A stretch of 64,000 bases of DNA, from NCBI GenBank assembly GCA_001512885.1, contig LFSZ01000043.1:2314-66313 (forward strand), written 5' to 3'. The DNA comes from Rikenellaceae bacterium DTU001 (GTDB taxonomy: Bacteria; Bacteroidota; Bacteroidia; Bacteroidales; DTU049). Under the pieces are notes generated by a model. The model was not told the DNA's origin. It was given only the letters and a program-made list of their open reading frames with translations, and did not search any database. Positions 1,494-17,800 of the stretch are shown piece after piece (the stretch's first letter is position 1; the number at the start of each line of letters is the position of its first letter). The position numbers and the translations under genes are program-made.

Positions 1494-3240
1494 TTATTTT
1501 TTTATTGATTATCTCAGAGTTATTTCCATTTTCCTTAGATTTTTGCCATAGTTGCACTGCATCATCTATTAGATTTAGATGATAATAAATATCACCTGCA
1601 TGTTCTAAAATTTCTGGATCCGAATCATTATACATCAAAGCTTTATCTATCCATTTTTTTGCTTCATCATAATTTTTCATTTTAAATAAAATCCAAGCCT
1701 TAGTATCAATAAAAGAAAATCTAGTAGGTTCTGTTAGTAAAACCTCATCTATTAAATTTAATGCTTTATCCATCATAGTATCTTGTTGAGCCAAAAAATA
1801 TGCATAATTATTTTTGAGTACGAGATTCGCTGGATTAGCTTTTATTGCTTTTTCGAAATAATCGAATGCTTTGGCATATTCTCCTGTTTCATAGTAAGCG
1901 TTAGCTAGTAATTCTATAATAATATTTTGCAATTCTTTATTCTTAGAAGGTATATAGCTGAGTGCGTTTTCTAAATGTGGAATGCACTTTTCAAATTTTT
2001 TCTGCATAAAGGCAGCATAACCTGCATAAAAGTAAAATTCGCCTATATCAGGGTAAAAATTAAGCGCTTTATTAGCATAAAATAGCATACTATCATAATC
2101 ATTTTTAGCTTCATAAGACATAATGAGATTTCTATATGTCGCGTCATTAGTAGAGTCTAACTCAAGAGCTTTTTTGAAATAAACAATAGCAGTGTCTAAA
2201 ATGTTTTGTGCTTGATAATAAAAACCTATGATATTAAAAGTTTCGGCTTTATCGCTATGTAAATCTTCTAAATGATAAAATAATTGTTGTATAAATTGTT
2301 CATCTATATTGGGGTTTTCTATGCTTGTTAATATCACTTGCAGTTTGTCTTGAAAATCGACTCTTGGGTCCTTGATAGCTATTAACAATTCTTTTTTTAA
2401 CTCTTCTACTTTATTAATTGCAAAATAATAATTAGCAGCGAATAGCGCTGCATACCCATCGGTACTATCACGTTGTTTATACCATTGCACTAAACGGTAG
2501 AGAGCTGTTATTTTACCTTTTTCTATTGCAAATGAGGAATATTCTTTTTTGTAATCCAAATTAGACGGATCATATTGTATACATCTCCATAGCTCATCTA
2601 GAGCTTCATCACTCTTACCTAGCAATGAGTATATTTGATATTTATAAAAACCTATTTCCGGTATAAAGCCATGCTGCGATTCTAATTTCGTAAAGATTTC
2701 TAAGGCATTATTTGGCATAAAAGCTATTAAATACATTTGTGCAACATTTAAATAATAATCTAATATTTTAGGATTCTTAGATATTAATATCTCATATCGC
2801 TGTGCAGCTTCTCGGTATTTTCTTAATTTAACCAGTATATTGGCACTTAGTTCTAAATAATAAACATTTTCTGGTGATAATTTGATAGCAATATCGATAT
2901 ATTTATTTGCGCTATCCCATTTATTGTTTAGCTCATAATATTTACTAAGTAGATAATAAGCAACATCTTGCTTAGGATCTTTACTGATAATGTCAAATAA
3001 TATCTCTTTTGCTTGATCTAACTCATTTAGTAGTAAACATTTTTGTGCATCTAATAAAAGATTTTGTATCTCTACTGAGGCTTGCAAAGTTTTATTAGTA
3101 TCTTTTATTTTACAATTACTAAGTGAAAAGCTTAAAAATATTAATAATATAGGAATAATGACAAAGTTATATTTATTGATAAATTGTTTTTTTTCGTCTA
3201 TAATGATATCTGTAGATTTGATTTTTTTTGAATATTTCAT
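1468..3240 (-). CDS. TPR-repeat protein with N-terminal membrane anchor
   Basis: 590-aa ORF with many 34-residue A/Y/L-patterned repeats (e.g. AYYLLSKYYELNNKWDSANKYIDIAIKLSPEN, YFYAGYAAFMQKKFEKCIPHLENAL) and an N-terminal hydrophobic segment. Confidence 0.8.
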   Translation of the reverse strand: MKYSKKIKSTDIIIDEKKQFINKYNFVIIPILLIFLSFSLSNCKIKDTNKTLQASVEIQNLLLDAQKCLLLNELDQAKEILFDIISKDPKQDVAYYLLSKYYELNNKWDSANKYIDIAIKLSPENVYYLELSANILVKLRKYREAAQRYEILISKNPKILDYYLNVAQMYLIAFMPNNALEIFTKLESQHGFIPEIGFYKYQIYSLLGKSDEALDELWRCIQYDPSNLDYKKEYSSFAIEKGKITALYRLVQWYKQRDSTDGYAALFAANYYFAINKVEELKKELLIAIKDPRVDFQDKLQVILTSIENPNIDEQFIQQLFYHLEDLHSDKAETFNIIGFYYQAQNILDTAIVYFKKALELDSTNDATYRNLIMSYEAKNDYDSMLFYANKALNFYPDIGEFYFYAGYAAFMQKKFEKCIPHLENALSYIPSKNKELQNIIIELLANAYYETGEYAKAFDYFEKAIKANPANLVLKNNYAYFLAQQDTMMDKALNLIDEVLLTEPTRFSFIDTKAWILFKMKNYDEAKKWIDKALMYNDSDPEILEHAGDIYYHLNLIDDAVQLWQKSKENGNNSEIINKKINDKKYYAF

Positions 3241-3528
3241 TTTCCCTTAATATATTCGTAAGTTAATTATGCAAAATTAAAATTTAAAATTAATATAAAA
3301 AATTATTTAAATACTTAGATTTATTAAGATCTAATCTGTAATTGATAATTTACATCATTGATCGGATAAATAAATATATAGTTATTCAAAAAATGGAATT
3401 TCAAATAAGATTTATTGTATATTTGTTTTGTTATTTATGATTTTTAAACTTTTTTCTTTTACATAGTTTATTTCTGCTTATTTATAAATATTTTTACATT
3501 TAAAATAGTATTATTATTTCAAATTTAT

Positions 3529-3546
3529 TTGTTAATTTTGTAACAA
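3529..3546. promoter_or_regulatory. Candidate Rex-type operator (inverted repeat TTGTTA-N6-TAACAA)
   Basis: TTGTTAATTTTGTAACAA read directly from the sequence. It matches the Rex consensus TTGTGAAnnnnTTCACAA at 11 of 14 specified positions. It overlaps the -7 box of the hydrogenase-like operon, and a rex gene closes the same locus. The AT-rich background makes a chance match plausible. Confidence 0.3.
3533..3540 (+). promoter_or_regulatory. Bacteroidota-type -7 promoter box (TAATTTTG) for the hyd-like operon
   Basis: Matches TAnnTTTG. It lies 12 nt upstream of TTG(3553) and 24 nt upstream of ATG(3565). Confidence 0.4.
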
Positions 3547-3552
3547 TGTTAT

Positions 3553-4005
3553 TTGATAAACAATATGAGAATAATTTTACCTTTTACCATAAATGAATTA
3601 TTTAAGGAAGTATGGCACGTATATCCTAATTCTCTCATAGATTTTTGTGCTAAAATAATGTTAGAGCCATATGCACTCTCTAAATCCCATTTTGATGAAT
3701 TAGAAATTTATTTTAAACAGCCTGCATCGGAGATTTATGCTTTTGTGGTTACTTGCTTCCCTGATTTATTAATATCCGATATCAATTATGACATAGTTAT
3801 GTGTAGAGGGTGGAATTGCTACCTAAAATATGGTAAAAATTTTTTAAATGAAGTTAATTACCAATTTAGAAATGAGTCAGAAAAACCAATTATAAAATTT
3901 CATAAATGTAATGGCAAATGCCATACAGATCAAATAGAATTAAATATAAATTCAGCTTTTTATAAAATCTTGAATAATATTAAAGAAAAAATTATAAAAA
4001 AATGA
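3553..4005 (+). CDS. NuoE/HydC-like thioredoxin-fold [2Fe-2S] ferredoxin subunit (divergent)
   Basis: The four-Cys pattern IVMCRGWNCYLKYG ... HKCNGKCH is C84-x4-C89-x29-C119-x3-C123. It mirrors the NuoE/HndA signature VCxGxxCxxxG ... CLGxCxxAP (canonical spacing about x35). The stop overlaps the next start (ATGA at 4002-4005). The start may be ATG 3565 rather than TTG 3553. Confidence 0.65.
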   Translation: MINNMRIILPFTINELFKEVWHVYPNSLIDFCAKIMLEPYALSKSHFDELEIYFKQPASEIYAFVVTCFPDLLISDINYDIVMCRGWNCYLKYGKNFLNEVNYQFRNESEKPIIKFHKCNGKCHTDQIELNINSAFYKILNNIKEKIIKK

Positions 4006-5873
4006 GCACTATAAAGCTTCAGTTAGGCTATGCTATCACCTCATTAGAATTGCAAAATATATGGGAAAAAGAGTTATTGTCTCTGCTCTCTCAAGATAAA
4101 CATTTTATTTTAAAAAATCATAGTACAGATTTATCGCCTAATGATGATGCTATTATAATAGAAACTTTTCCTAATACTGGATTAAAAGGATTTTTGTATG
4201 CCGAACCCTTAGTATGGATAAAACATCCACTCAAGCGTACTTTATGTTTCAGAAATTTAGAACCTGAGTTAATACCATGGATAATAGAATGTGTTGTAAA
4301 TCTTGATATAACTAGTTTGAAACCTTGGATACAATTAGATGATTATGGAGAAAGCTGGCCCCATATCCCTATAATAACTCAAATGCCTTGGTATGACAAG
4401 ATAGTGCCCTTTTTGACAAATTCTTTTTCTGGAGATGATTGGATAATAGACAATACAATTTTAGACAATACAAATATTGATTTCATCGTCTCTCTATATA
4501 ATAAAAAAAGTAGTGTAGAAGTAAAAGATTTAATTTTTAAGAGTAAGCTTATCGGTAGAGGTTCAGGTACTCTACCTATAGAAATCAAGTGGCAAGCTAT
4601 AGATGAGCAATTAGCAGAAAAAAAATATTTAATAATAAATGCTAACGAATTCGGACCTAGTAGTCTAAGTAATTATTTTTTACTTCGATATTATCCTACA
4701 ATGATTCTAGAAGGTATAATAACCACTTGCTATGCTTTGCATATTAATAACGCCATAATAGCTATTCATCAAGACTATCTAGATGTTTATGAAGCTTTTA
4801 GTAAATTGATCAGCCAAGCCAAAGATTTAGGTCTATTAGGTGATGATATTTTAAATACTGGTAATTCTTTATCTATTGATGTAATGTTGACACCTGGTAT
4901 GTTAATTACAGGTGAAGAGACTGCCCTTATACATTTATTAGAATCTCAAATGCCTTTTCCTACTAATAAACCGCCATATCCCACTAGTTTAGGTTTGTGG
5001 GGACAGCCCACTTTAGTTCATAACGTAGAGACTATAGCAAATATTTCTCAAATAATAAAAACTGATAAATCTCTTGAAATCTACGCCCCCATTTCGAAGC
5101 AAGGGACTAAAGTAGTAACTCTATGTGGAGAAATAAATAATTATGGCGTTTACGAAATATCTATGGATATCAGTATAGATGAGGTAATAAACAAAATAGG
5201 TGGTGGACTTAATAATTCAAATAAAATAAAAGGCTTTCACATTGGAGGAGTTACTGGGAGATTTTTTGATCTAGATAACTTGGATAAATCTCTTTATGAT
5301 TTAGAAAAACAAACTAATTATTTAGGTACATCTACTATTTTTACTTTTTCAGAAGAGCAATGTATCGTTAAACTTTTACAACATATATCAGAAATACTTA
5401 CAGAGCAAAGTTGTGGTAAATGTATACCATGCTTATATGGATCTAGGGTATGGTCTGAGCTGATTAGTTATCTATCATTAGCTAATAATCCCCAAATTCC
5501 CCATTTTCCTTTATATAGATTAAAAACTATTTTATCATTTAATAAATTAGATCGTACTGTTACTGAATCTTCACTATGTGCATTAGGCAAAAGTCTTTCG
5601 CAAACATTCATATCAGCATATAATTTTTTCAAAGATGAAATCGAAGAGCATATATTTGATAAATATTGTCGTTCTTATCAATGTGTAGGATTGAGAAATT
5701 ATATTATAGATGAAGATGCATGTACTGGATGTGGACTTTGTATAGTAGAATGCCCTGTAAATGCTATAATAGAAAAACGAATAAATCTATTTGTTATTTT
5801 AGATGGTAAATGTGTAGGCTGCGGTTTATGTGAAAAAGTTTGTAAGTTTTCAGCTATAAATTTAAAAAAATGA
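4002..5873 (+). CDS. NuoF/HydB-like subunit with C-terminal 2x[4Fe-4S] ferredoxin domain; flavin/NADH motifs divergent
   Basis: NuoF signature blocks are present: GRGSGTLPIEIKW, NANEFGPS, ITGEETALIHLLES, PPYPTSLGLWGQPTLVHNVET, SCGKCIPC and SLCALGKS. The C-terminus carries CTGCGLCIVECP and CVGCGLCEKVC. The N-terminal Trx-like domain has no cluster cysteines (TGLKGFLYAEPLVWI). Confidence 0.85.
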   Translation: MSTIKLQLGYAITSLELQNIWEKELLSLLSQDKHFILKNHSTDLSPNDDAIIIETFPNTGLKGFLYAEPLVWIKHPLKRTLCFRNLEPELIPWIIECVVNLDITSLKPWIQLDDYGESWPHIPIITQMPWYDKIVPFLTNSFSGDDWIIDNTILDNTNIDFIVSLYNKKSSVEVKDLIFKSKLIGRGSGTLPIEIKWQAIDEQLAEKKYLIINANEFGPSSLSNYFLLRYYPTMILEGIITTCYALHINNAIIAIHQDYLDVYEAFSKLISQAKDLGLLGDDILNTGNSLSIDVMLTPGMLITGEETALIHLLESQMPFPTNKPPYPTSLGLWGQPTLVHNVETIANISQIIKTDKSLEIYAPISKQGTKVVTLCGEINNYGVYEISMDISIDEVINKIGGGLNNSNKIKGFHIGGVTGRFFDLDNLDKSLYDLEKQTNYLGTSTIFTFSEEQCIVKLLQHISEILTEQSCGKCIPCLYGSRVWSELISYLSLANNPQIPHFPLYRLKTILSFNKLDRTVTESSLCALGKSLSQTFISAYNFFKDEIEEHIFDKYCRSYQCVGLRNYIIDEDACTGCGLCIVECPVNAIIEKRINLFVILDGKCVGCGLCEKVCKFSAINLKK

Positions 5874-7453
5874 AAATTAATATTACAGTAAATAATCAAA
5901 AATACAAAGTAGATCTAGGGGAAAATCTACTAAATGCTTTACTTTCTTTAGGCTATGATATTCCACATCTTTGCTATTTAGAAAATTACTCCCCAAATTA
6001 TGCTTGCAGATTGTGCATGGTAGAAATTGATGGATTTAATAATCCTATTCAAGCTTGTACTGTTGATGTAAACACACCACTGCAGGTTTACACTCATACT
6101 CCGAAGCTAATAAATATTCGTAAGAATATATTAGAATTAATCTTGTCACAACATTCATTAGAATGTAATACATGTCCTAAGGCTATTAATTGCAGTTTAT
6201 TAAATTATGCATATCAATATGGTGTAAACGAAATTATTTGGAGACATGTGATTACCGATTCCAAGGAAAAAGATATATCTAGTCCTGTGATAGCTAAAAA
6301 TATAAATAAATGCATCTCTTGTGGTATTTGTGTTAAAATTTGTAATGAAATGATGCATTGCAATGTATTTAATCATGCTTTTATTGGTACTAAAAAAACT
6401 ATTATTTCTTCTTTGGATAAACCTATAAATTTATCTAATTGTTACTACTGTGGACAATGCTCTTATCATTGTCCTACTAGTGCTTTATATGAAAAATCAT
6501 ACATTGATAATGTGGAGATAGATCCACAAAATACTACCTTAATATTTGACTCTGCTGCTGTTTACAACTTGATGTCTCAGATTAATAGTAATTTTACAAA
6601 AAATCCTATTTTATCATTTAATTATTTATGTCAATTCTTAGGTTTTAAAAAATTAATTAATTTAGGAGAATTAATAGATGCTAAATTATATTTAGATTTT
6701 CAACTTTTAAAAGATAGAAAACACCCTATCATTTCTAATTTATGTCCTGTCAGTATAGAATATATTAAACAAAAATATCCAGAATTAATTGAATTTATCA
6801 GTCCTTTAGCTTCCCCAATGCAGGCTGCAATTAGATTGACTAATAAAAGTAATCCTATCCTGATACTCACTAATTGTTCGGCTTACAAAAATGATATTTT
6901 TCAAAATTATAGTAATACTGAGCACAAAATTTATGTTGCTAATGTAAGAGATTTTTTAAAATATTTATTGCGAAATGGCTATACATTAGAACAATTAAAA
7001 AATTTGATTCCTAACATCAAAGCTAAAAAAAACTATTCATATTCTATCGGCGGACTGTATGCTGATATATCAATGTATAATTTATTAAAATTAATTTTAG
7101 ATGAAACCAATATACAAATAGATAAACCCTCAAAAATTAATAGTTTTTTAACAGGAAAAAATGAAAATAAAAAGTATAATTTTAGATTAAAAAATAAAAA
7201 TTATTCTTTAATAAGCATTAATACAATAAGTGAGATTGCAAATTTTTTTGATCATGAATTTTTAAAAACAAATTTAGCATTAATAGGATGCTGGAGCTGT
7301 GCTAATGGATGCATTAATGGTGGAGGCAAAACTTTCGAAATATTTAAAACTACAAATAAAAGTTTATCCTCAAGAAATCCCTTGCTCACCCAAATTTATA
7401 ATATTAATGAAGATTTAATAATTCAAGAGAAATTATGGAAACAAGAAAATTAG
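5870..7453 (+). CDS. [FeFe]-hydrogenase HydA-like protein (2Fe-2S + His-ligated 4Fe-4S + 2x4Fe-4S + H-domain) with non-canonical L1/L2/L3 motifs
   Basis: Cluster patterns read from the sequence: C35-x10-C46-x2-C49-x13-C63, H95-x3-C99-x2-C102-x5-C108, CISCGICVKIC and CYYCGQCSYHC. H-domain motifs are ISNLCPVS (canonical TSCCPxW), LTNCSAYKND (MPCxxKxxE), ASPMQ and LIGCWSCANGCINGGGKT (ExMACxxGCxxGGGQP). The start overlaps the upstream stop (ATGA). Confidence 0.8.
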   Translation: MKINITVNNQKYKVDLGENLLNALLSLGYDIPHLCYLENYSPNYACRLCMVEIDGFNNPIQACTVDVNTPLQVYTHTPKLINIRKNILELILSQHSLECNTCPKAINCSLLNYAYQYGVNEIIWRHVITDSKEKDISSPVIAKNINKCISCGICVKICNEMMHCNVFNHAFIGTKKTIISSLDKPINLSNCYYCGQCSYHCPTSALYEKSYIDNVEIDPQNTTLIFDSAAVYNLMSQINSNFTKNPILSFNYLCQFLGFKKLINLGELIDAKLYLDFQLLKDRKHPIISNLCPVSIEYIKQKYPELIEFISPLASPMQAAIRLTNKSNPILILTNCSAYKNDIFQNYSNTEHKIYVANVRDFLKYLLRNGYTLEQLKNLIPNIKAKKNYSYSIGGLYADISMYNLLKLILDETNIQIDKPSKINSFLTGKNENKKYNFRLKNKNYSLISINTISEIANFFDHEFLKTNLALIGCWSCANGCINGGGKTFEIFKTTNKSLSSRNPLLTQIYNINEDLIIQEKLWKQEN

Positions 7454-9432
7454 AATATCATCAATTAGTTTTTACAGTACAAAATAGATGCAAGGTTTGT
7501 TATACTTGTGTTAGAGAATGTCCAGCTAAAGCTATAAGGATATTTAACGGGCAAGCTGATATTTTACCAGATAGGTGCATTACCTGTGGCAACTGCATAA
7601 AAGTTTGTAGTCAAGGCGCCAAAGATTTTGTAAAGCACTCTGATGAGGTCGATGAGCTTTTACAAACAAATGAAAAAGTAGCTGCATTAGTAGCGCCAAG
7701 CTTCCCATCCGAATTTTCTGATTTCAAAACTCATAATAATTTTGTAGGTTTATTAAGAAAACTTGGTTTTGACTATATTTACGAAGTGGCTTTCGGTGCC
7801 GACTTAGTAGCTCATACATTTAAAAAACTAATAAAAGCTAATCCAGATATGCAATATATCACTTCAGATTGCCCTGCAATAGTGAAATTTGTTAAAAAAT
7901 ATTATCCTGAACTGACAGAAAATTTATTACCTGTATGCTCGCCTATGAATGCAATGAATAGAGTAGTAAAAAATATGTTTGACTATAATATTAAAACTAT
8001 TTTTATAGGACCTTGTATCGCCAAAAAAGATGATTGGGAAGAGGTGGATTTCAAAATTACTTATCGTGAACTTAGAAGTTTAATTCAAAAACATAATATT
8101 GAAATAGAAAATATAGAACCTTCAACTTTCGACCCTCCTTATGGAGGTTTAGGAGCCATATTTCCTGTATCTAGAGGGCTGATACAAGCTGTAGACATTG
8201 ATGATAAACTCTATAAAAGTAATATAATAGCTGCTGAAGGCAGAGAAGATTTTCAAGAAGCTCTGAAAGAATTTTATTCAAAAACTTGGGGCAAAGAAAA
8301 CCTTGAACTTTTGTGTTGTGATGGCTGCATAATGGGGCCAGGAACTACTTCTTTGAGTAATAGATTTGCTAAGGAGGCTTTCGTTACTAATTATGTTAAA
8401 AGAAAATTAAAAAATATTGATTGGGAAGAATGGGAAAATAATTTAAACTATTGGATGGAAACACTTGATTTATCTGTAGAATATTATCCCTCCCCTATTG
8501 AAGATTTAATACCAAGTGAAGAGGAAATCAGATCTGTTTTAATTGAATTAGGTAAATCTACTCCCGAAGATGAACTCAATTGTGGTGCTTGTGGATACAA
8601 TACTTGTAGAGAGCATGCTATAGCGATAATAAAAGGTATAGCTGAAACCGAGATGTGCCTTCCATATACTATAGACAGATTGCATAGCCTATTAGAAGAA
8701 TTAAATATCTCAAACAAAGAATTGCGAGATGCCCAGGAAGCTCTGAAAAAAACTGAAAAATTAGCAACTATGGGACAATTAAGTGCTGGCATAGCTCATG
8801 AACTCAATAATCCCCTCGGTGTTATAATAATGTACGCAAATATTCTTTATGAAGAATGTCCGCCCGATGACCCTAAAAGAAAAGATCTAGAAATGATAGT
8901 CTCGCAAGCCGAGAGATGTAGGCAAATTGTTAAAGGATTACTTAATTTTGCTAGAAAAAATCAAGTTGTTTATGAAAAAATAAATATACAAAATCTATTT
9001 GATAAAGCTATTAATTCTGTTATAATACCTGAACATATTACAGTAAAAACCAAAGTTGATCCGCCAGATCTCGAAGGATATATAGACATAGAACAAATGC
9101 TACAAGCCATTACTAATCTTATTCAAAATTCAATAGATGCTATTGGCAATAAAAAAGGTGAAATCATATTAGAAGCTCAGACTAAAGATAACTATTTGGC
9201 AATCTCAGTATATGATAATGGTGTTGGGGTACCCGATAGTGATTTATCAAAAATTTTTGAACCATTTTTTACAACTAAACCCGTGGGCAAAGGGACGGGG
9301 TTGGGTTTGGCTACCGTTTATGGAATCATTAAAATGCATAGGGGCAAAATAGAAGTGGAAAGCAATGCTGATCCGTCTAAAGGGCCTACATATACTAAAT
9401 TTTATATCTTTATACCTCAAAGTAAAAATTAA
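7435..9432 (+). CDS. Sensory [FeFe]-hydrogenase-like protein fused to histidine kinase (2x4Fe-4S + H-domain + Cx2Cx4Cx16C module + HisKA + HATPase_c)
   Basis: Ferredoxin motifs [12 protein letters not shown] and [12 protein letters not shown]-domain motifs [17 protein letters not shown] and [14 protein letters not shown] four-Cys module CGACGYNTC...x16...C at aa 383-408. H-box [10 protein letters not shown] (His455, nt 8797-8799). N/G boxes [16 protein letters not shown] and GKGTGLGLA. It overlaps the upstream gene by 19 nt. Confidence 0.85.
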
Positions 9433-9473
9433 TAATTTTATATAAAAAATAAAATATTATTAAAGCCAAAAAT

Positions 9474-9908
9474 ATGATATCATTAAGTAGTTTTAAAAAA
9501 AAAATAAAAATTATGGAAAAAATAAAAATTTTATTAGTAGATGATGATCCCGATTTTTCTGATCAAATGTTATTTTATCTAAATAAATTTGGTTATAATA
9601 CAATATATTTACCTTCGCAAAGATCAGCTGAAAGTCGTCTGAAAGATTTAAAATTTGATCTTGCTATCATAGATTTGATGATGGAAGAGGAAGATAGTGG
9701 ACTACAATTAGCTCGAAAAATCAAATCAAACTATCCAGACATACCTATTATATTACTTACTGCTATCACTAATGAAACAGGGTATTCACTTTCTAATGAA
9801 TTTGATAATTCGCCAGAATTAATGCCTATAGATAAATATTGTGAAAAAGGTATCAGGCCTGAGGTATTAAATAAAATAATCCAACAATTATTAACAAATA
9901 AAAAATAA
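9474..9908 (+). CDS. Stand-alone response-regulator receiver (CheY-like, no output domain)
   Basis: Receiver pattern KILLVDDDPDF ... DLAIIDLMM ... PIILLTA, with no additional domain. The probable true start is ATG 9513 (MEKIKILLVDDD). Confidence 0.85.
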   Translation: MISLSSFKKKIKIMEKIKILLVDDDPDFSDQMLFYLNKFGYNTIYLPSQRSAESRLKDLKFDLAIIDLMMEEEDSGLQLARKIKSNYPDIPIILLTAITNETGYSLSNEFDNSPELMPIDKYCEKGIRPEVLNKIIQQLLTNKK

Positions 9909-9913
9909 AGGTT

Positions 9914-11065
9914 ATGATATACAATATTTTAATAGTAGATGACGAAGAAGGCATTAGAATGGCAATAAAAAGAGCATTAGAAAAACATCGGATAGATTTT
10001 CCATTTTTAGATGAACCTATCAAATTATCGCTATATGAAGCAGAGAGTGCTGAGAGGGCTTTAGAAATTTTGTCTGATACTCACATGGATATTATATTAT
10101 TAGATAATAAATTGCCAGGAATGCAAGGTATCGATATTATGCCTTATCTAAATGAGCATTATCCTGATACTAAAATACTAATCATTACTTCCTTTGCCTC
10201 ATTAGATATAGCATTAGAAGCTACTAAACATGGAGCTTTTGATTTCATTCCCAAACCTTTTACTCCACAGGAACTAAAAAATGCTATCGAGATAGCTAGC
10301 AAACAAATATATCTAAATAGTATAATAAAAGATATGGATAAAGAAGCTAGAAAAATACGCTTCAAATTTCTTTCTATTTTGTCGCATGAGCTCAAAACCC
10401 CCATAACTACCCTAGAAGGATATATTTATATGATAAAAGAAAAGCAATTAGGTGATAATATAGATAATTATATGGAATTAATAGACAAAATGCTTAATAA
10501 ATTAGAAGAAATGAGAACTCTGATAATGGATCTTCTAGACTTCACTAATTTGCAAGCCGAAAGCACTATAGGAGAAAAAGAATTGTTATCATTAAAAGAA
10601 ATTATCATGTTTTCTATTGATAGTCAACGACCATTAGCTATTCAAAAATCTATAACTTTCGATATAGATATAAAAAGTCCATTAAATATTTTTGCTAGTA
10701 AAAATGAAATGGAAATATTATTTAATAATTTAATAAATAATGCAATAAAATACAATAAAAATAACGGTAAAATAATAATAAAAGGCGAAGAAAATGATAA
10801 TAATATAATAATAAAAATAAAAGATACAGGTATTGGTATCAATGAAAATGATTTACCACATATTTTTGATGAATTCTATAGAACAGTAGATGCTAAATCT
10901 CGTCGTTTATCTGGTACTGGACTGGGACTTTCTATCGTAAAAAAAATGATAGAATTGTATAATGGAACTATAGAGGTAGAGAGCAAAGTTAATGAATACA
11001 CAGAATTTACCATTATTTTACCTAAAATAGAAGATAATAAAACTAAAAATTTTATTGATAATTAA
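9914..11065 (+). CDS. Hybrid receiver-histidine kinase (N-terminal REC + HisKA + HATPase_c)
   Basis: REC pattern ILIVDDEEGIR ... DIILLDNKLPGMQG ... ILIITS ... KPF. H-box LSILSHELKTPIT. N/G boxes NNLINNAIKY, DTGIGI and GTGLGLSIV. Confidence 0.85.
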   Translation: MIYNILIVDDEEGIRMAIKRALEKHRIDFPFLDEPIKLSLYEAESAERALEILSDTHMDIILLDNKLPGMQGIDIMPYLNEHYPDTKILIITSFASLDIALEATKHGAFDFIPKPFTPQELKNAIEIASKQIYLNSIIKDMDKEARKIRFKFLSILSHELKTPITTLEGYIYMIKEKQLGDNIDNYMELIDKMLNKLEEMRTLIMDLLDFTNLQAESTIGEKELLSLKEIIMFSIDSQRPLAIQKSITFDIDIKSPLNIFASKNEMEILFNNLINNAIKYNKNNGKIIIKGEENDNNIIIKIKDTGIGINENDLPHIFDEFYRTVDAKSRRLSGTGLGLSIVKKMIELYNGTIEVESKVNEYTEFTIILPKIEDNKTKNFIDN

Positions 11066-11098
11066 AAGTCTTTTTTATTAATTATAAATTTCACTAAT

Positions 11099-11719
11099 AT
11101 GATATTACCAGAAAAAACAATAGAACGTTTAAGTAAATATAGAAGGGTATTGATAAACCTAAATTTTCAACAAAAAGATTATATCTATTCACATGAATTA
11201 GCTAATCTGATTCATATAACTCCCGAACAAGTAAGAAGGGATATGATGTTAATAGGACATAGCGGTACACTTAGAAGGGGTTATGAAGTTAAACAATTAA
11301 TAGAAAAGATAAATTCTATAATAGATGGTAACACAGTACAATATGTTACTCTAGTAGGTGTTGGTAATTTGGGACGTGCAATGCTCAATTATTTAAAAAA
11401 TAAAAATAAATATTTGCAAATAATAGCTTGCTTTGACAATGACCAGGATAAAATTAATAAAATGTGTTGTGGTATACCTTGTTATTCTATCAATGAAGCA
11501 GAAGAACAAATAAAAAAGTTAAATATAAATATTGCTATATTGACAGTCCCAACAAATGTAGCTAACGAAGTAGCTGATATTTTAATTAAGGCAGGCATTA
11601 AAGGATTATTAAATTTCACTACTATGCCTTTAAAAGTGCCATCCAACGTATATCTAGAAGAATATGATATGATAACATCTTTGGAAAAAGTTGCTTACTT
11701 TACACAATTTATTGAATAG
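11099..11719 (+). CDS. rex: Redox-sensing transcriptional repressor Rex
   Basis: N-terminal winged-helix block IPEKTIERLSKYRRVL ... SHELANLIHITPEQVRRDM, followed by the Rossmann motif VTLVGVGNLGRAMLNY. The 206-aa length is typical. Confidence 0.85.
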   Translation: MILPEKTIERLSKYRRVLINLNFQQKDYIYSHELANLIHITPEQVRRDMMLIGHSGTLRRGYEVKQLIEKINSIIDGNTVQYVTLVGVGNLGRAMLNYLKNKNKYLQIIACFDNDQDKINKMCCGIPCYSINEAEEQIKKLNINIAILTVPTNVANEVADILIKAGIKGLLNFTTMPLKVPSNVYLEEYDMITSLEKVAYFTQFIE

Positions 11720-11788
11720 AACCAAAATAATTAAAAAAAAAGTAAATGCTAAATAAATGAGTAAGTATTTTTTTTTAAAAAAATAAAA

Positions 11789-12700
11789 ATGCATATATAT
11801 TATAGCTTTGATGAAGATTTTGAAATATCTAATCCTGTTGTAACGATTGGCACTTTTGATGGTGTGCATGCTGGACACAGAGCTATATTGAAAAGATTAA
11901 ATATATTAAGTCAAAAAGTAAATGGTGAGTCTGTACTGATAACTTTTTATCCTCATCCTCGCAAAGTATTATATCCTGATACCTTAGGTAAAAATTTAAA
12001 AATGATCTGCACTCAAAATGAAAAAATACATCTATTACAAGAGACTAAATTGAATCATCTATTTATAATACATTTTACTAATGAATTTTCTAAAATTACC
12101 GCTGAGCAATTCGTTAGAAATTTTTTAGTAAATAAATTGCACGCTAGAGTCATAGTAGTTGGTTTTAATCATCATTTCGGCTACGACAAACAAGGTGACT
12201 ATGAATATTTATATGAATTACAACAATATTTTGGATTTCAAGTAGAGGAGATACCACAACAAGAGATAGAAAAAGAGACTGTATCATCTACTAGAATCAG
12301 ACAAGCTCTAAGCCAAGGATTGATACAAAAAGCTAATGCTTACTTACAATCTCATTTTCCCTTTTTCGGTGTTGTAACTGAAATAAACCCATTAGACAAT
12401 AAATTGACAAAAATAAAAATCAAAACTGATGAAATAGAAAAAATAGTACCACCGATAGGTTTATATGCTGGAGTTTTGCAAATGGATATTAAAAAAATTA
12501 AATGCTTAATAATCACAAATGAAATTGATGAGAATATCATACCATTTATTGAAATAATTTTTCAAGGTGAAATAAATATCACATTAGGAGATAATGTACG
12601 TGCATTTTTTGCAAAAGAATTACAATTATATGATAAAATAGATAATTTGCATAAGAGTATTAATGAGTATATAACATTAATAAATGAATTGATATATTAA
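11789..12700 (+). CDS. ribF: RibF-type FAD synthetase (FMN adenylyltransferase module intact; riboflavin-kinase module degenerate)
   Basis: The N-terminal motifs GTFDGVHAGH, FYPHP and SSTRIR are present. In the C-terminal half the expected GRxLGFPTAN, NIGxRPT and LRxE motifs are replaced by DNKLTKIKIK, ITNEIDE and AKELQ. Confidence 0.75.
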   Translation: MHIYYSFDEDFEISNPVVTIGTFDGVHAGHRAILKRLNILSQKVNGESVLITFYPHPRKVLYPDTLGKNLKMICTQNEKIHLLQETKLNHLFIIHFTNEFSKITAEQFVRNFLVNKLHARVIVVGFNHHFGYDKQGDYEYLYELQQYFGFQVEEIPQQEIEKETVSSTRIRQALSQGLIQKANAYLQSHFPFFGVVTEINPLDNKLTKIKIKTDEIEKIVPPIGLYAGVLQMDIKKIKCLIITNEIDENIIPFIEIIFQGEINITLGDNVRAFFAKELQLYDKIDNLHKSINEYITLINELIY

Positions 12701-12738
12701 AGATATTTATTTTTTTTAAAAAAAAAGTCCCAAAAATA

Positions 12739-13413
12739 TTATAAATTTTGAATTTCGACTTTAAAAATTTCAGAAAAAATATCTAAAATATATTTTTTTA
12801 CTTCATTTATATCTACCTCATACCCTAATTCTTTAGCTATAGATGTTACTCCTTTGCCAGTAATACCACATGGATTTATATATGAAAAGTATTTTAGATC
12901 TGTATTTACATTAAATGCAAAGCCATGCATAGTAATATTTCTAGTAATTCGAATACCGATAGAGCAGATTTTTCTAGCCTTTGGTGTATTAGGATCTAGC
13001 CATACACCTATAGAGCCGCTCATTCTATCTCCCTTTATTCCATATTTATCTAATACATTAATTATCACTTCTTCGACATTATAAACATACTGTTTGGGTC
13101 CTATTTTTAGTTTCATCAGATCGATTATCGGATAACCAACAATCTGTCCTGGTCCATGATAAGTAATGTCACCCCCTCTATCAGTTTTTACTAATTCCGC
13201 ATTAATCTTTTCTAATAATTGAGGTGAAATGAGCAAATTATCTTCTTTACCATGTTTTCCAAGGGTATAAACATGTGGGTGCTCAAGTAATATTAAATAA
13301 CCAATAAAATCAGGTTCATTTTTCTTATTGAAAACTTCATCAACTTTTTTTAATTGATACTGGTAAGCGTCATCGAATCGCTTATTACCGAGATCTACAA
13401 TTTTTATATTCAT
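12739..13413 (-). CDS. lipB: Octanoyltransferase LipB
   Basis: RGGDITYHGPGQIVGYPI, KICSIGIR and HGFAFNV are typical LipB blocks. Confidence 0.9.
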   Translation of the reverse strand: MNIKIVDLGNKRFDDAYQYQLKKVDEVFNKKNEPDFIGYLILLEHPHVYTLGKHGKEDNLLISPQLLEKINAELVKTDRGGDITYHGPGQIVGYPIIDLMKLKIGPKQYVYNVEEVIINVLDKYGIKGDRMSGSIGVWLDPNTPKARKICSIGIRITRNITMHGFAFNVNTDLKYFSYINPCGITGKGVTSIAKELGYEVDINEVKKYILDIFSEIFKVEIQNL

Positions 13414-14823: not shown

Positions 14824-17800
14824 CTAATAACACAATGGCAGGATAATCGTAAATTTTGTCCCCTCACCTAAAAGACTTTCTACCAATATTTTACCATTTA
14901 AGTCTTCGATTATATGCTTTACTATTGCTAAGCCTAGTCCGGTACCAGATGATTTAGTAGTGAAATTGGGTTCAAATATATTTTCTAGCATCTCATTGGC
15001 GATTCCGATACCATTATCAGAAATTATAATTATAGCATTATTATTATCTGATTTAGCATAAATGTTTATCTCTCCGCGTCTTTCATTTGATAGAGCTTGC
15101 ACGGCATTTTGCAATATATTAGTAAAAGCTCTATTTAGTCTACTCTCATCTCCTATTACTGTCAATTTATCAGATTCTAAATGAATATTAATATCATAAT
15201 CTGTACTATGAAACAGGGCAGCTAAATTTTGTAAAAGTGTTATGAGATTTACTTCCTTGCTTAATGGTTCTGGCATTTTATTAAATTGAGAAAATGCTGT
15301 TGCTATTTCAGATAATTGTTCTATTTGTTCTAGAAGTGTTGTTAAGTATTTTTCGATATCTTGTTCAAATCTTTTTTTATCTTGCTTCCATATTCTTTGC
15401 AAAAATTGAACACTTAGCTTCATAGGTGTAAGAGGATTTTTTATTTCATGAGCTACTTGTTTTGCCATTTCTCTCCAAGCTATTTCTCTTTCGTTCTGAG
15501 CCAGCTTTTCAGCTTTTTCAGCTAATTCATCTATCATTTGATTATATTGCTTTACTAATTGTCCTATCTCATCATTACTTTTGTATTCTATTTTTTCATT
15601 TTGTTTAGATAAATTTAGTGATTTTAGCCTTTTACTTATTAATTGCAAGGGTCTATTTATATATTGTGTTATTAAAAAAGTAAAAATTAGAGAAATCAAG
15701 AGTAAAATGGCATAAATATTTATAAAAGCACCTATTAGCTCACTCAATTCTCCCCGTAATTCTGTGATCTGGCTAAACATAGGTATAGACAATATGCCTA
15801 TTATATTATTACCTCTAAATACTGGCATATATGTATTGCGATATTCAAACTCACTTATTTTTTCTTTATTTGAGTAATACCAATACTTTTTCCATTTGTT
15901 TGTCCAATAAACATCTGGATTTATCAATGTTGTTAACAAATGATCGTTAAACAATGCAAATTGTGTCGTTGATAATAAAGTGCCATCTGTATTATAAAAA
16001 TGTAAATCCGAAAAGTAAGAGTATTTATATTTCCATAACAGTGAATCTATGCTGGTCGAGTTGATTTTTATATTATTTTTTACGATTTCGTCTTGTAATG
16101 ATAAGTACAATCCATAATTGCGCTCAAAACATTGTTTTTCTAATTGCCGTGAGTATGTGTTTTGTATATATTTGACAGACAAAATACCTGCTACCAAAAT
16201 GACAATAGTAATAATACTGATCAATGTGATTTGTAATCTACCCGCATAACTTCTAAAAATCTTTTTAATGTTAATACCTTTTATTAATATGTAATAAATT
16301 AAATAAAGCAATAGAATTATTATAATAAAAAATGAAAAGATACTCAACCAATTTGGTAAAGTGTGATTAGACACTAACACAATAAATCTATTATTGTCTA
16401 TTTCGCTTTTGATGGCGTATTTATCATGATATTTAAATAATTTGCCAATAGGAGCTGCATCTATTTCATTATCTACTTGTAAAGGAAAAATTGTATTACC
16501 ATAGCTCTGCATTAATGTATTATTATAGTATGTAGCATAATCTAGCTGTCCAGGGAGTAATTGCTCTTCCTCTATATTTACTAATAATTCTAAATATCCT
16601 TCTGGTCTAAAAGGTTTCTTTTTGTAAAGTTCTAAATATAATTGGTGTGGTAGCTCACTATGAAGCATGATTTTGTATAAATAGTAAGTAATATTGGCAT
16701 TAGTAATGAAATATAAATTATCTGATATGTGCTGTGCTTGCGAATACTCCACTATGCTATCATAATATTGCCAGCAATTGATTTCTAAATTATTATTTAA
16801 AAATTTATCATGACTACTACAGATGAAACCTATGATATCATACTGATCTTGAAATGAGGATAAGTAGTGATTTTTTATATGTGTCAGCCATTGCATACTG
16901 GTATCGAAGCTATTAGCATAATTCACTAAAAATCTATCAGCAGATATTTCAGTTTGGAGTTCATTTAAGTGATTTTCTAGTATCAAATCTCGCTCAGAGC
17001 TTATTTTTACAGCATTTAAGAGTAAATAATTCGAAAAACTCTGATGATGCACTCGCATAAATAAAAAACTACTAATAGCTACTATCATACCACTAAAAAT
17101 ATAAATAAAATAGCGCCTAAACGACTTCTTATTCATAGATGATAATAGGTACATTATCAGCCAAAGTAAGATCCCTAACATCGAGATAATAAGATAAAAA
17201 TTTTGATTTTTTAATAAAAAAATCAAAAAAATTGTATAAAAAGCAAAACCACTATAAACTATTTTTTTGGGTGGTTTGTGAGTTAGCATCAATCTGATCG
17301 ACCATGTCCATATGACCAGTAGGGATATAGCTAAAATTATTACAAATATAATATCCACTTTTGTAGATATCCATTCATAATAGCTATAGGGAAATTCAGT
17401 TGCATTGAATATGCGAGATAGCCAGATAAAAATATTACCAGAGAAAAATATTGAGGTTACAAAACAGAAAAGCCTTTTGTAATCATTAGGTAATAGCTTG
17501 ATAGCAATCTTGATAATTAGAGCAGCTAGCCACACTAATAAAAATGTTTTACCTATATTGTTAAAAATAAGAGATAATGCAAAAAATGAAGGATTAAAAA
17601 CATAATATTTGGTAGATAAAAAATTAGTAAGTATCCATAATAACCCGATAATCGTTAATATTAAAATTAAAAGGACAAAGATTTTATTACTAGCTTTCCA
17701 TTTATTTATCAATGCAGAAATCAAAAGATACAAACCAAATAAAAACAAAATAAAACTTAATAATGCAATGAAATTTTGAGTTTTAGTAGGCTGAATATCC

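What the first reader, a model, noticed from the sequence alone, without database searches (positions are those of the whole stretch)
7435..9432. [FeFe]-hydrogenase H-domain fused directly to a histidine kinase
Domain order read from the sequence:
- Two CxxCxxCxxxC ferredoxin motifs (aa 19-59).
- An H-domain with L1 = ITSDCPAI (nt 7861-7875; canonical TSCCPxW, with the first Cys replaced by Asp), L2 = GPCIAKKDD (MPCxxKxxE) and L3 = [13 protein letters not shown] (ExMACxxGCxxGGGQP, with the C-x3-C pair kept).
- A Cx2Cx4Cx16C module at aa 383-408 (nt 8581-8658).
- A short coiled coil, then H-box [10 protein letters not shown] (His455) and a complete ATPase domain.

The ligand cysteines are retained, the proton-relay cysteine is lost, and the four-Cys module follows. 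As I recall, that is the signature of the sensory hydrogenase HydS of Thermotoga maritima. Here the PAS domain of HydS is replaced by a kinase transmitter. The fusion predicts a direct H2 (or H-cluster redox state) to phosphorylation switch. I remember kinase-linked sensory [FeFe] hydrogenases being predicted bioinformatically (a group C subclass), but I know of no biochemically characterised example.
Basis: partly seen in the sequence, partly recalled or inferred. Interest (0 to 1): 0.8.

Follow-up and report, generated by a model that had tools for sequence, protein, structure and literature searches.

The report
Hydrogen-sensor hydrogenase fused to histidine kinase
This gene encodes a hydrogenase-like hydrogen sensor joined directly to a signalling kinase. 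It belongs to a widespread family that has been catalogued but never tested biochemically, and it sits beside the hydrogenase genes it probably helps control.

Summary
ORF 7435-9432 (+), 665 aa, contains two [4Fe-4S] ferredoxin motifs, a strong [FeFe]-hydrogenase H-domain (Pfam PF02906, 159 bits), a Cx2Cx4Cx16C FeS module (PF04060), and HisKA plus HATPase_c domains. There is no PAS domain.

Two details need correcting. The L3 cluster ligands are C295 and C298, a C-x2-C pair as in all group C-like enzymes, not C294 and C298. The proton-relay Cys is replaced by Asp, which published mutagenesis shows is the only substitute that keeps prototypical enzymes active. Asp145 is invariant in the Bacteroidota clade only.

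The fusion is not rare. At least 563 species-level genomes hold relatives. The best 80 come from about 15 phyla, and 78 of the 83 loci examined carry a full-length fused gene. The gene order hydC-hydB-hydA-[sensor kinase]-REC-[REC-kinase] is conserved, often with rex and hydG nearby. The family fits HydDB's "[FeFe] group C1, histidine kinase-linked (putative)", and genome papers have already noted such genes. I found no biochemical study.

Verdict: a real, well-conserved member of a known but uncharacterised sensor class. The most likely function is H2 or redox control of a phosphorelay tied to the bifurcating hydrogenase. In this lineage the adjacent HydA is unusually divergent.

The parts
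7435..9432 (+). Complete gene for the sensory [FeFe]-hydrogenase/histidine kinase fusion (665 aa). Its start overlaps the end of the upstream hydA-like gene by 19 nt.
   Evidence: An identical protein (P0001) is already in public data, where JGI names it 'signal transduction histidine kinase/iron only hydrogenase large subunit-like protein'.
7489..7611 (+). Two CxxCxxCxxxC [4Fe-4S] ferredoxin motifs (C19/22/25/29 and C48/51/54/58).
   Evidence: These cysteines are nearly invariant in 150 representatives.
7675..8340 (+). H-domain (Fe_hyd_lg_C, aa 81-302).
   Evidence: Pfam 158.9 bits. PDB sequence hits to HydA of TmHydABC and to CpI. Foldseek matches to [FeFe]-hydrogenase structures with probability 1.0.
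7861..7875 (+). L1/P1 motif TSDCP. D145 (nt 7867-7869) sits at the CpI C299 position and C146 at the C300 ligand position.
   Evidence: D145 and C146 are invariant in 118/118 close homologues. Asp occurs only in the Bacteroidota clade.
8008..8034 (+). L2/P2 motif [10 protein letters not shown]194 corresponds to CpI C355, G192 to M353 and K197 to K358.
8305..8343 (+). L3/P3 motif [14 protein letters not shown]295 corresponds to CpI C499 and C298 to C503 (C-x2-C). C294 is a clade-specific extra Cys.
8581..8658 (+). Cx2Cx4Cx16C module (C383/386/391/408, PF04060), the presumed C-terminal [4Fe-4S] site of group C and D sensors.
   Evidence: The motif is described for the M2e/M2f enzymes in PMC8163306.
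8659..8856 (+). Predicted single continuous helix, aa 409-474. It starts one residue after ligand C408 and runs through the phospho-acceptor H455 (codon 8797-8799).
   Evidence: AlphaFold2 secondary structure H409-474. pLDDT in this stretch is 62-87.
8770..8961 (+). HisKA (DHp) domain with H-box [10 protein letters not shown].
   Evidence: H455 is invariant in 118/118 and present in 77 of the 78 locus orthologues.
9085..9420 (+). HATPase_c catalytic domain with N, G1, F and G2 boxes (N565, D594xGxG598, F611, G622LGL).
   Evidence: The profile matches the ZraS cytoplasmic domain at E 4e-62.
3553..4005 (+). hydC/NuoE-like small subunit. It has no Pfam hit but keeps Cx4C...Cx3C.
   Evidence: It is 81% identical to its L001 counterpart.
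4002..5873 (+). hydB/NuoF-like flavoprotein subunit.
5870..7453 (+). hydA-like subunit, strongly diverged (L1 reads SNLCP, no small-subunit domain).
9474..9908 (+). Stand-alone receiver (REC) protein. The likely true start is M14 at nt 9513. D67 is the candidate phospho-acceptor.
   Evidence: Present immediately downstream in 46 of the 70 loci with room.
9914..11065 (+). REC-HisKA-HATPase_c protein, the second kinase of the cluster.
   Evidence: Present downstream in 64 of the 70 loci with room.
11099..11719 (+). rex, the redox-sensing (NADH/NAD+) transcriptional repressor.
   Evidence: NCBIfam Rex models at 199 bits, above cut-off. Found in the cluster in 32 of 80 loci.

Best explanation
The gene encodes a cytoplasmic sensor kinase whose input module is a complete group C-type (HydS-like) [FeFe]-hydrogenase.

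Proposed mechanism, with each step marked as shown or inferred:
1. Inferred: H2 binds and is slowly split at an H-cluster held by C146, C194, C295 and C298. This changes the redox and protonation state of the H-cluster and of the neighbouring [4Fe-4S] clusters.
2. Inferred: the change reaches the kinase in one of two ways. One is the Cx2Cx4Cx16C cluster, which caps the N-terminus of the signalling helix. The other is a conformational change of the H-domain.
3. Predicted, not shown experimentally: a continuous helix spans aa 409-474 and carries H455.
4. Inferred: the change alters autophosphorylation in a dimeric kinase.
5. Inferred from conserved gene order: the phosphoryl group passes to the stand-alone receiver and/or to the receiver domain of the REC-kinase encoded next.
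6. Unknown: the final output. It is presumed to be control of the co-transcribed hydCBA hydrogenase, acting in parallel with the NADH sensor Rex.

Shown here: the domain architecture, conservation of the ligands and catalytic residues, the fold, purifying selection, and the conserved synteny.
For: Architecture and scores.

Conservation:
- All four H-cluster ligands, the pocket residues (P88-S89 = CpI P231-S232, S169-P170 = S323-P324, K197 = K358), the 4-Cys module and H455 are invariant or nearly so. This holds in 118 close homologues and 150 distant representatives.
- The kinase boxes are intact, and the kinase core matches ZraS at E 4e-62.

Structure: the AF2 model has pLDDT 89 and a helix 409-474 linking C408 to H455. 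Foldseek matches hydrogenases and ZraS.

Selection: dN/dS is 0.057 against an 85%-identical orthologue.

Synteny:
- hydA lies immediately upstream in 50 of the 66 loci with room.
- The REC-kinase lies downstream in 64 of the 70 loci with room.
- This holds across about 15 phyla.
- hydG is nearby in 31 of 80 loci.

Modularity: the same Fer4-H-FeS module is fused to GGDEF, GAF-GAF-kinase and PAS-HATPase outputs in other proteins. That is how a portable sensor domain behaves.

Literature:
- Group C and D enzymes bind a normal H-cluster, turn over slowly and stabilise reduced states (PMC10055695, PMC8163306).
- HydDB predicts C1 enzymes sense H2 through histidine kinases (PMC5037454).
Against: - No member of the kinase-fused group has been studied, so H2 dependence of the kinase is untested.
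- In TamHydS (group D), 1 atm H2 did not reduce the C-terminal cluster, and removing the cluster hardly changed activity (PMC13104023). This argues against the simple version of the relay step that goes through that cluster.
- No DNA-binding response regulator is encoded in the cluster, so the regulatory target is inferred only from proximity.
- No hydE, hydF or hydG lies in the 64-kb window, so maturation capacity of this organism is not shown.
- The adjacent HydA is atypical in this lineage.
- Asp145 could mean more catalytic competence than expected for a pure sensor.
Confidence: 0.7

Rival explanations
1. It is a general redox sensor for the ferredoxin/NADH pool rather than an H2 sensor. 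The N-terminal [4Fe-4S] clusters exchange electrons with ferredoxin or with HydABC. The kinase reads cluster redox state. The H-cluster either only equilibrates this with H2 or is absent in vivo.
For: - Two ferredoxin-type clusters sit at the surface-exposed N-terminus.
- The gene is tightly coupled to hydCBA and rex, which handle ferredoxin and NADH.
- In TamHydS the N-terminal clusters are the main electron route (PMC13104023).
- No maturase genes lie in the window.
Against: - All residues specific to the [2Fe] pocket, not only the cubane ligands, are conserved across phyla. A plain FeS redox sensor would have no need for them.
- hydG and hydE neighbours occur in 31 of 80 loci.
- The characterised relatives TmHydS and TamHydS incorporate an H-cluster and react with H2 (PMC10055695, PMC8163306).
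Confidence: 0.15
2. It is a catalytically relevant hydrogenase, possibly an extra subunit of the HydABC complex. Asp145 would serve as the proton relay, and the kinase would report the turnover of the complex. In this lineage HydA has lost its own relay Cys.
For: - Published mutagenesis shows that Asp is the only replacement of C299 that keeps group A enzymes active (PMC10055695). The query's best CpI match is the C299D variant.
- D145 is invariant in the clade.
- The window's HydA has Leu at that position.
- hydA and the sensor gene overlap by 19 nt.
- The Hydrogenedentota paper treats group C3 proteins as a 'T' subunit of Bfu complexes (PMC11406978).
Against: - The rest of the canonical proton path is missing: E279 is deleted, E282 is Thr128, R286 is Leu132 and S319 is Leu165 (alignment).
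- M353 is Gly and M497 is Leu, as in the slow sensory enzymes.
- Most relatives outside Bacteroidota have T, S, A or P instead of Asp, with the same gene order.
- Relatives with a canonical HydA (L003 and others) have the same Asp, so Asp is not a compensation for the degenerate HydA.
Confidence: 0.08
3. It is a sensor of O2, CO or another small molecule. The signal would be inactivation or ligand binding at the H-cluster or FeS clusters, not H2.
For: - H-clusters and [4Fe-4S] clusters react with O2 and CO.
- TamHydS forms a distinctive O2-derived state and tolerates CO (PMC8163306).
Against: The conserved linkage is to hydCBA and to maturase genes, not to oxidative-stress or CO-metabolism genes. 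No such genes were seen next to the cluster.
Confidence: 0.04

Closest known systems
HydDB [FeFe]-hydrogenase group C1, 'histidine kinase-linked (putative)' (Sondergaard, Pedersen and Greening 2016, PMC5037454)
   Same: - Both are sensory-type H-domains linked to a histidine kinase and predicted to sense H2.
- A Bacteroidales isolate (Petrimonas mucosa) has a C1 'HydA' close to hnd/hydABC genes (PMC7768429).
- Hydrogenedentota C1 proteins carry HATPase_c, and 21 of 53 lie next to group A3 genes (PMC11406978).
- A Hydrogenedentales orthologue (L021, 47% identical) has the same gene order as the window.
   Different: - I could not run the HydDB classifier, so assignment to C1 is by description, not by test.
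- Some C1 entries have the kinase as a separate neighbouring gene, or lack HATPase_c (PMC8542988, PMC11406978). Here it is fused.
- The Hydrogenedentota authors could hardly find P1-P3 motifs in their C1 proteins. Here modified but complete motifs are clear: [ST][ST]xCP, GPCxAKK and ExLxCxGCxxGP.
[quoted passage not shown]
   Same: - Two N-terminal [4Fe-4S] motifs, an H-domain with all four cluster ligands, and a Cx2Cx4Cx16C C-terminal module.
- C299 not conserved, and M353 replaced by Gly (G192 here, G177 in TmHydS).
- Canonical proton pathway absent.
- Encoded next to a bifurcating HydABC (PMC10055695, PMC8163306).
   Different: - TmHydS ends in a PAS domain and has Ala131 at the C299 position and Ser at the M497 position.
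- This protein has no PAS domain: 35 residues separate the FeS module from HisKA. It has a full kinase transmitter, Asp145 and Leu.
- Representatives of TmHydS-like length (about 560-590 aa) are about 30-35% identical over the sensor part.
[quoted passage not shown]
   Same: - The same three-part FeS/H-domain layout without a PAS domain.
- M497 replaced by Leu.
[quoted passage not shown]
   Different: - The kinase-like protein is a separate gene there.
- M353 is Ser there and Gly here.
- H2 does not reduce its C-terminal cluster (PMC13104023). Whether that also holds for the fused kinases is unknown.
Regulatory [NiFe]-hydrogenase HoxBC with kinase HoxJ (group 2b) of Cupriavidus/Rhodobacter
   Same: The logic is the same: a slow hydrogenase acts as an H2 receptor that controls a histidine kinase and hence hydrogenase gene expression. 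This rests on established knowledge and on HydDB table entry 2b (PMC5037454).
   Different: - The metal site ([NiFe]) and the fold are unrelated.
- Sensor and kinase are separate proteins in a complex.
- The response regulator HoxA is a known DNA-binding activator. No such output is visible here.
NtrB/ZraS/AtoS-type HisKA kinases
   Same: The transmitter core matches ZraS at E 4e-62 with Foldseek TM 0.79. It matches the NCBIfam AtoS model at 178 bits (below that model's cut-off).
   Different: There are no transmembrane or periplasmic sensor parts. The input is a cytoplasmic metalloenzyme domain.

Membership tests
[FeFe]-hydrogenase H-domain superfamily | Significant match to the Fe_hyd_lg_C profile and the hydrogenase fold | tested here: met
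   PF02906 at 158.9 bits. PDB phmmer and hmmsearch hits to HydA and CpI. Foldseek probability 1.0 to more than 40 hydrogenase chains.
[FeFe]-hydrogenase H-domain superfamily | Four cysteine ligands of the H-cluster (CpI C300, C355, C499, C503) | tested here: met
   C146, C194, C295 and C298 align to them. They are invariant in 118/118 and nearly invariant in 150 representatives.
[FeFe]-hydrogenase H-domain superfamily | Actual incorporation of the [2Fe] subcluster and reactivity with H2 | not testable with these tools
   This needs expression, maturation with [2Fe]-adt, and FTIR/EPR. No hydE, hydF or hydG lies in the window.
Prototypical group A [FeFe]-hydrogenase | Canonical motifs TSCCPxW / MPCxxKxxE / ExMACxxGCxxGGGQP and the proton pathway C299-E279-S319-E282-R286 | tested here: not met
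   The motifs read [16 protein letters not shown] and [14 protein letters not shown]279 is deleted, E282 is T128, R286 is L132 and S319 is L165.
Sensory group C/D [FeFe]-hydrogenases (M2f/M2e) | Two N-terminal [4Fe-4S] motifs, an H-domain and a C-terminal Cx2Cx4Cx16C motif | tested here: met
   The definition comes from PMC8163306.
Sensory group C/D [FeFe]-hydrogenases (M2f/M2e) | C299, M353 and M497 not conserved | tested here: met
   They are D145, G192 and L293. This compares with Ala/Gly/Ser in TmHydS and Leu at M497 and Ser at M353 in TamHydS (PMC10055695, PMC8163306).
Group C as defined by a fused PAS domain (M2f, TmHydS type) | PAS domain after the 4-Cys module | tested here: not met
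   There is no PAS hit at E <= 0.01. Only 35 residues, predicted as one helix, separate PF04060 from HisKA.
HydDB group C1 (histidine kinase-linked) | Assignment by the HydDB k-NN classifier | not testable with these tools
   HydDB is not available here. Indirect support comes from published C1 calls for a Bacteroidales isolate and for Hydrogenedentota proteins with HATPase_c next to A3 genes (PMC7768429, PMC11406978).
HydDB group C1 (histidine kinase-linked) | Linkage of a sensory H-domain to a histidine kinase | tested here: met
   They are fused in one polypeptide. A full-length fused ORF is present in 78 of the 83 loci examined.
HisKA-type sensor histidine kinase | H-box His plus N, G1, F and G2 boxes | tested here: met
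   H455, N565, D594, G596, G598, F611 and G622-L625 are invariant or nearly invariant in alignment A3. The profile matches ZraS at E 4e-62.
HisKA-type sensor histidine kinase | Autophosphorylation and phosphotransfer to a cognate receiver | not testable with these tools
   Candidate receivers are encoded at 9474-9908 and 9914-11065.

The most novel reading that the evidence does not exclude
The Bacteroidota sensor kinases have an invariant Asp at the proton-relay position, so they may not be slow, sensor-only enzymes. They could be physically attached, turnover-competent modules of the HydABC complex, with a kinase that reports the flux through the complex rather than ambient H2. In the window's lineage HydA has lost its own relay Cys (Leu) and about 70% of its sequence identity, yet it stays under purifying selection. 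There the fused protein may have taken over H2 chemistry for the complex.
Probability: 0.1. Interest if true: 0.75.

Novelty: new member of a known kind. Interest (0 to 1): 0.45.

Why it matters
Whether group C and D [FeFe]-hydrogenases really sense H2, and how the signal leaves the protein, is still open after eight years of work on TmHydS and TamHydS. In 2026 the authors still call for identification of the interaction partners (PMC13104023).

In the kinase-fused form the output is built into the same polypeptide, and a standard assay (autophosphorylation and phosphotransfer) can read it. The family therefore makes the question directly testable. It is widespread in anaerobes of digesters, sediments and guts, so it probably sets hydrogenase expression in many H2-producing fermenters.

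This work adds three practical points:
1. Corrected motif definitions for the class, with a C-x2-C L3.
2. A conserved three-protein phosphorelay cassette to clone together.
3. Cultured or complete-genome sources (Petrimonas mucosa, Tenuifilaceae strain CYCD).

The window's own copy is one ordinary member of the family.

Tried and rejected
- Rex operator search: TTGTGAAN6TTCACAA with up to 3 mismatches gave 8 matches against 7.5 expected, and none in the hydC upstream region. There is no evidence for a Rex box.
- Sigma-70 promoter and intrinsic-terminator scan of 3100-13000 was no better than shuffles. It is uninformative for a Bacteroidota genome.
I used phmmer with the window's kinase part and spot checks instead.
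- tblastn search for hydE, hydF and hydG in the window found none. This says nothing about the rest of the genome.
- I considered that C294/C298 keep the canonical C-x3-C spacing and rejected it. C294 is not conserved outside the nearest clades, while C295 is.
- I considered that the HydA-like neighbour is a decaying pseudogene and rejected it. The frame is intact and dN/dS is 0.14.
- I could not retrieve the TmHydS or TamHydS sequences themselves. Comparisons with them rest on residue identities stated in the papers.
- The Greening 2016 ISME J paper that first defined the C subgroups is not in the searchable library.


Full report
**1. What is in the sequence**

Window 7435-9432 (+) is one uninterrupted ORF of 665 codons. 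Pfam finds the following:
- ferredoxin-type 4Fe-4S families over aa 16-62
- Fe_hyd_lg_C over aa 81-302 (E 2.2e-46, 158.9 bits, cut-off 22.1)
- the small 'FeS' family PF04060 over aa 381-410
- HisKA over aa 446-509
- HATPase_c over aa 551-662

NCBIfam agrees. The N-terminal part matches [FeFe]-hydrogenase models and the C-terminal part matches AtoS/ZraS/NtrB-type kinases, all below the equivalog cut-offs.

I listed all cysteines. No PAS domain is detected. Only 35 residues separate PF04060 from HisKA.

**2. Mapping onto CpI**

phmmer against PDB sequences aligns the H-domain with the HydA subunits of bifurcating HydABC and with CpI.

In the ungapped stretch around L1, query residue n corresponds to CpI residue n+154:
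- D145 = C299
- C146 = C300
- L165 = S319
- S169-P170 = S323-P324

Further upstream, E279 falls in a 4-residue deletion, T128 = E282 and L132 = R286. In L2, G192 = M353, C194 = C355 and K197 = K358. In L3, HMMER pairs C295 with C499 and C298 with C503, with a one-residue deletion. P88-S89 align with P231-S232.

So the four cluster ligands and the residues that hold the [2Fe] subsite are present, and the canonical proton pathway is absent except for position 299. That position is Asp. Of all CpI entries, the query scores best against the C299D variant 6glz. According to PMC10055695, Asp is the only substitution of this Cys that preserves activity in prototypical enzymes.

**3. Conservation**

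*Close homologues.* The word-indexed search found 7,944 proteins at E <= 1e-10. The best 120 have 53-100% identity, and the full-length ones all show the same domain set; where named, they are Bacteroidales, Tenuifilaceae or Bacteroidota. An identical protein is already in JGI data under the name 'signal transduction histidine kinase/iron only hydrogenase large subunit-like protein'. In 118 full-length sequences, D145, C146, G192-P193-C194, K197, C295, C298, all four cysteines of the C-terminal module and H455 are invariant. C294 is conserved in 117 of 118.

*Distant representatives.* An exhaustive HMMER search with the sensor part only (aa 1-430) against 1.84 billion cluster representatives gave 5,157 hits at E <= 1e-3 and 947 at E <= 1e-30. 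Among the best 149 of these plus the query (150 sequences), C146, C194, C295 and C298 are nearly invariant and C294 is not. The usual L3 is [ED]xL[FA]CxGCxxGP. The class has a C-x2-C L3, and C294 is an extra Cys confined to the nearest clades.

*The C299 position.* It is variable across the class: A 54, P 24, T 19, S 18, C 15, N 7 and others. This fits the published 43% Ala, 17% Cys, 10% Pro and 10% Ser (PMC10055695). Asp occurs only in the Bacteroidota clade.

*Outputs.* 43 of the 150 sequences (the query plus 42 representatives), concentrated among the best hits, carry a kinase C-terminus. Other sequences with the same Fer4-H-FeS module end in GGDEF (P0143), GAF-GAF-HisKA-HATPase (P0163) or PAS-HATPase (P0124). 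This is the behaviour of a portable input module.

**4. Distribution and gene neighbourhood**

The best 80 loci match the query almost end to end at 33-53% identity.

They come from Bacteroidota, Ignavibacteriota, Planctomycetota (including a Kuenenia MAG), Myxococcota, Desulfobacterota, Elusimicrobiota, Acidobacteriota, Verrucomicrobiota, Spirochaetota, Chloroflexota, Actinomycetota, Clostridia, Armatimonadota, Calditrichota, Lentisphaerota and Hydrogenedentota. 78 of the 83 loci held (the 80 plus L001-L003) carry a full-length fused ORF with the ligand set intact, and 77 of them also keep the H-box His.

Using the window's neighbours as tblastn probes:
- A hydA lies immediately upstream on the same strand in 50 of the 66 loci with room (57 of 80 have one within 7 kb).
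- A REC-HisKA-HATPase gene lies downstream in 64 of the 70 loci with room.
- A stand-alone REC lies directly downstream in 46 of the 70.
- rex is present in 32 of 80 loci and hydG in 31 of 80.

The window has the same order:

| Coordinates | Gene |
|---|---|
| 3553-4005 | hydC-like |
| 4002-5873 | hydB |
| 5870-7453 | hydA-like |
| 7435-9432 | sensor kinase |
| 9474-9908 | REC |
| 9914-11065 | REC-kinase |
| 11099-11719 | rex |
| 11789-12700 | ribF |

All lie on one strand with overlaps or short gaps. Precomputed gene calls for relatives show the same picture.

In Tenuifilaceae strain CYCD and several other Bacteroidales, a second sensory hydrogenase lies divergently upstream of the same hydCBA, next to a SpoIIE-type phosphatase. 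This matches the group C3 arrangement. The window lacks that pair.

**5. Structure**

AlphaFold2 with a 30-sequence alignment gave mean pLDDT 89 and pTM 0.67. Foldseek against the PDB matches solved [FeFe]-hydrogenases (CbA5H, DdH, HydA of HydABC, CpI) over 360-460 columns with probability 1.0. It matches the ZraS cytoplasmic kinase domain with target TM 0.79.

The most useful feature is a single predicted helix from residue 409 to 474. It begins one residue after C408, the last ligand of the Cx2Cx4Cx16C module, and contains H455. The C-terminal cluster site is therefore predicted to cap the signalling helix that becomes DHp helix 1. The model is a monomer. The kinase is expected to be a dimer, from general knowledge of HisKA kinases.

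**6. Selection**

Against the orthologous cluster in L001, Nei-Gojobori dN/dS is 0.057 for the sensor kinase, 0.047 for REC, 0.087 for the REC-kinase, 0.042 for rex and 0.139 for the hydA-like gene. Synonymous sites are close to saturation, so these values are approximate. All the genes are clearly constrained.

**7. How it most likely works**

*Shown:* an intact sensory-type H-domain, an intact kinase, the direct helical connection, and the conserved cassette with the bifurcating-type hydrogenase.

*Inferred:* the state of the H-cluster sets kinase activity. H2 and the redox poise of the N-terminal clusters govern that state. The phosphoryl group then goes to the adjacent REC and/or to the REC domain of the second kinase.

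[quoted passage not shown] That route is questioned by the 2026 finding that H2 does not reduce this cluster in TamHydS (PMC13104023). A conformational route, through the secondary-structure changes reported for TamHydS and cited in the same paper, is equally possible.

*The final output is unknown.* No DNA-binding response regulator is encoded in any locus inspected, and no Rex box stands out.

*Rivals:* a general redox sensor, a catalytically relevant subunit of the complex, or an O2/CO sensor. They are listed in the rival explanations with their tests.

**8. Comparison with what is known**

The protein meets the published definition of group C/D sensory [FeFe]-hydrogenases (PMC8163306). It does not meet the narrower 'H-domain plus PAS' definition (M2f, TmHydS).

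[quoted passage not shown] Genome papers have reported such genes:
- a C1 'HydA' near hnd genes in the Bacteroidales isolate Petrimonas mucosa (PMC7768429)
- C1 genes beside kinase genes in Cloacimonadota (PMC8542988)
- C1 proteins with HATPase_c next to group A3 genes in Hydrogenedentota (PMC11406978)

The Hydrogenedentota authors could hardly find the P1-P3 motifs and doubted H2 sensing. The alignments here show the motifs are present in modified form, including in a Hydrogenedentales orthologue (L021: [28 protein letters not shown]).

I could not run the HydDB classifier, so C1 membership is by description. Full-text searches for any biochemical work on a kinase-fused [FeFe] sensor found none. 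The library does not cover most subscription journals.

**9. Verdict**

The fusion is a common, already catalogued class rather than a rarity, and this copy is an ordinary member.

Its value is as an experimental handle on the unproven sensory role of group C and D hydrogenases. Two smaller points look new:
- the invariant Asp at the relay position in the Bacteroidota clade
- the corrected C-x2-C L3 for the class

The interest score is 0.45. The novelty rating is 'new member of a known kind'.

Noticed in passing
window 5870-7453 (+): The hydA-like gene upstream of the sensor is highly atypical.
- L1 reads SNLCP (C299 is Leu), L2 reads TNCSAYK (M353 is Thr, P354 is Asn) and L3 reads GCWSCANGCINGGGK.
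- It has several deletions, no small-subunit domain, and a Pfam H-domain score of only 52.6 bits.
- It is 30% identical to the canonical HydA of Tenuifilaceae CYCD, while the neighbouring sensor is 54% identical.
- Only two full-length clusters at about 70% identity (plus one identical fragment) exist in 5.8 billion proteins, one of them named as Rikenellaceae. The next hits are at 28%.
- All four cluster ligands are kept and dN/dS is 0.14, so it is not a pseudogene.
   Followed up: partly
window 3553-4005 (+): The NuoE/HydC-like 150-aa protein has no Pfam or NCBIfam hit at E <= 0.001. It keeps a Cx4C...Cx3C pattern and the hydC position, and it is 81% identical to its counterpart in L001. Like hydA, it is strongly diverged in this 28% GC lineage.
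   Followed up: partly
L003:157-3244 (-), and similarly in L006, L009, L012, L013, L017, L051, L082: In Tenuifilaceae CYCD and other Bacteroidales, a second sensory hydrogenase (about 630 aa, Fer4-H-FeS with an unassigned C-terminus) lies beside the same hydCBA, next to a SpoIIE/PP2C phosphatase. In most of these loci it is divergently upstream. One hydrogenase operon is therefore flanked by two different putative H2 sensors, one C3-like and one kinase-fused. The window lacks this pair.
   Followed up: partly
proteins P0143, P0163, P0124 (representatives): The same Fer4-H-FeS input module is fused to other outputs. P0143 has a GGDEF diguanylate cyclase, P0163 has GAF-GAF-HisKA-HATPase and P0124 has PAS-HATPase. 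This suggests H2 or redox control of c-di-GMP signalling in some organisms.
   Followed up: partly
L040, L041, L053, L059, L060, L063, L064, L071, L072 (Thermoleophilia and mostly Ignavibacteriota, plus one MAG labelled Bacteroidetes): In these genomes a second hydC-hydB-hydA set follows the REC and REC-kinase genes, so the sensor cassette sits between two hydrogenase operons.
   Followed up: no
window 1-64000: No homologue of HydG, HydE or HydF was found anywhere in the window by tblastn at E <= 1e-6. These maturase genes follow the cluster in 31 of 80 other genomes. The closest relative's locus (L001) also continues with DsrE/DsrC-like genes instead.
   Followed up: partly
window 42580-44631 (+) and 14824-18363 (-): Two further large ORFs (683 aa and 1179 aa) contain HisKA/HATPase-like regions that cross-match the cluster's kinases at 25-30% identity. 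They are possible additional two-component proteins.
   Followed up: no
window 9474-9512 (+): The REC ORF as listed starts at an upstream ATG, giving 144 aa. Orthologues are 131-132 aa and align from M14 (nt 9513), which is probably the true start.
   Followed up: partly
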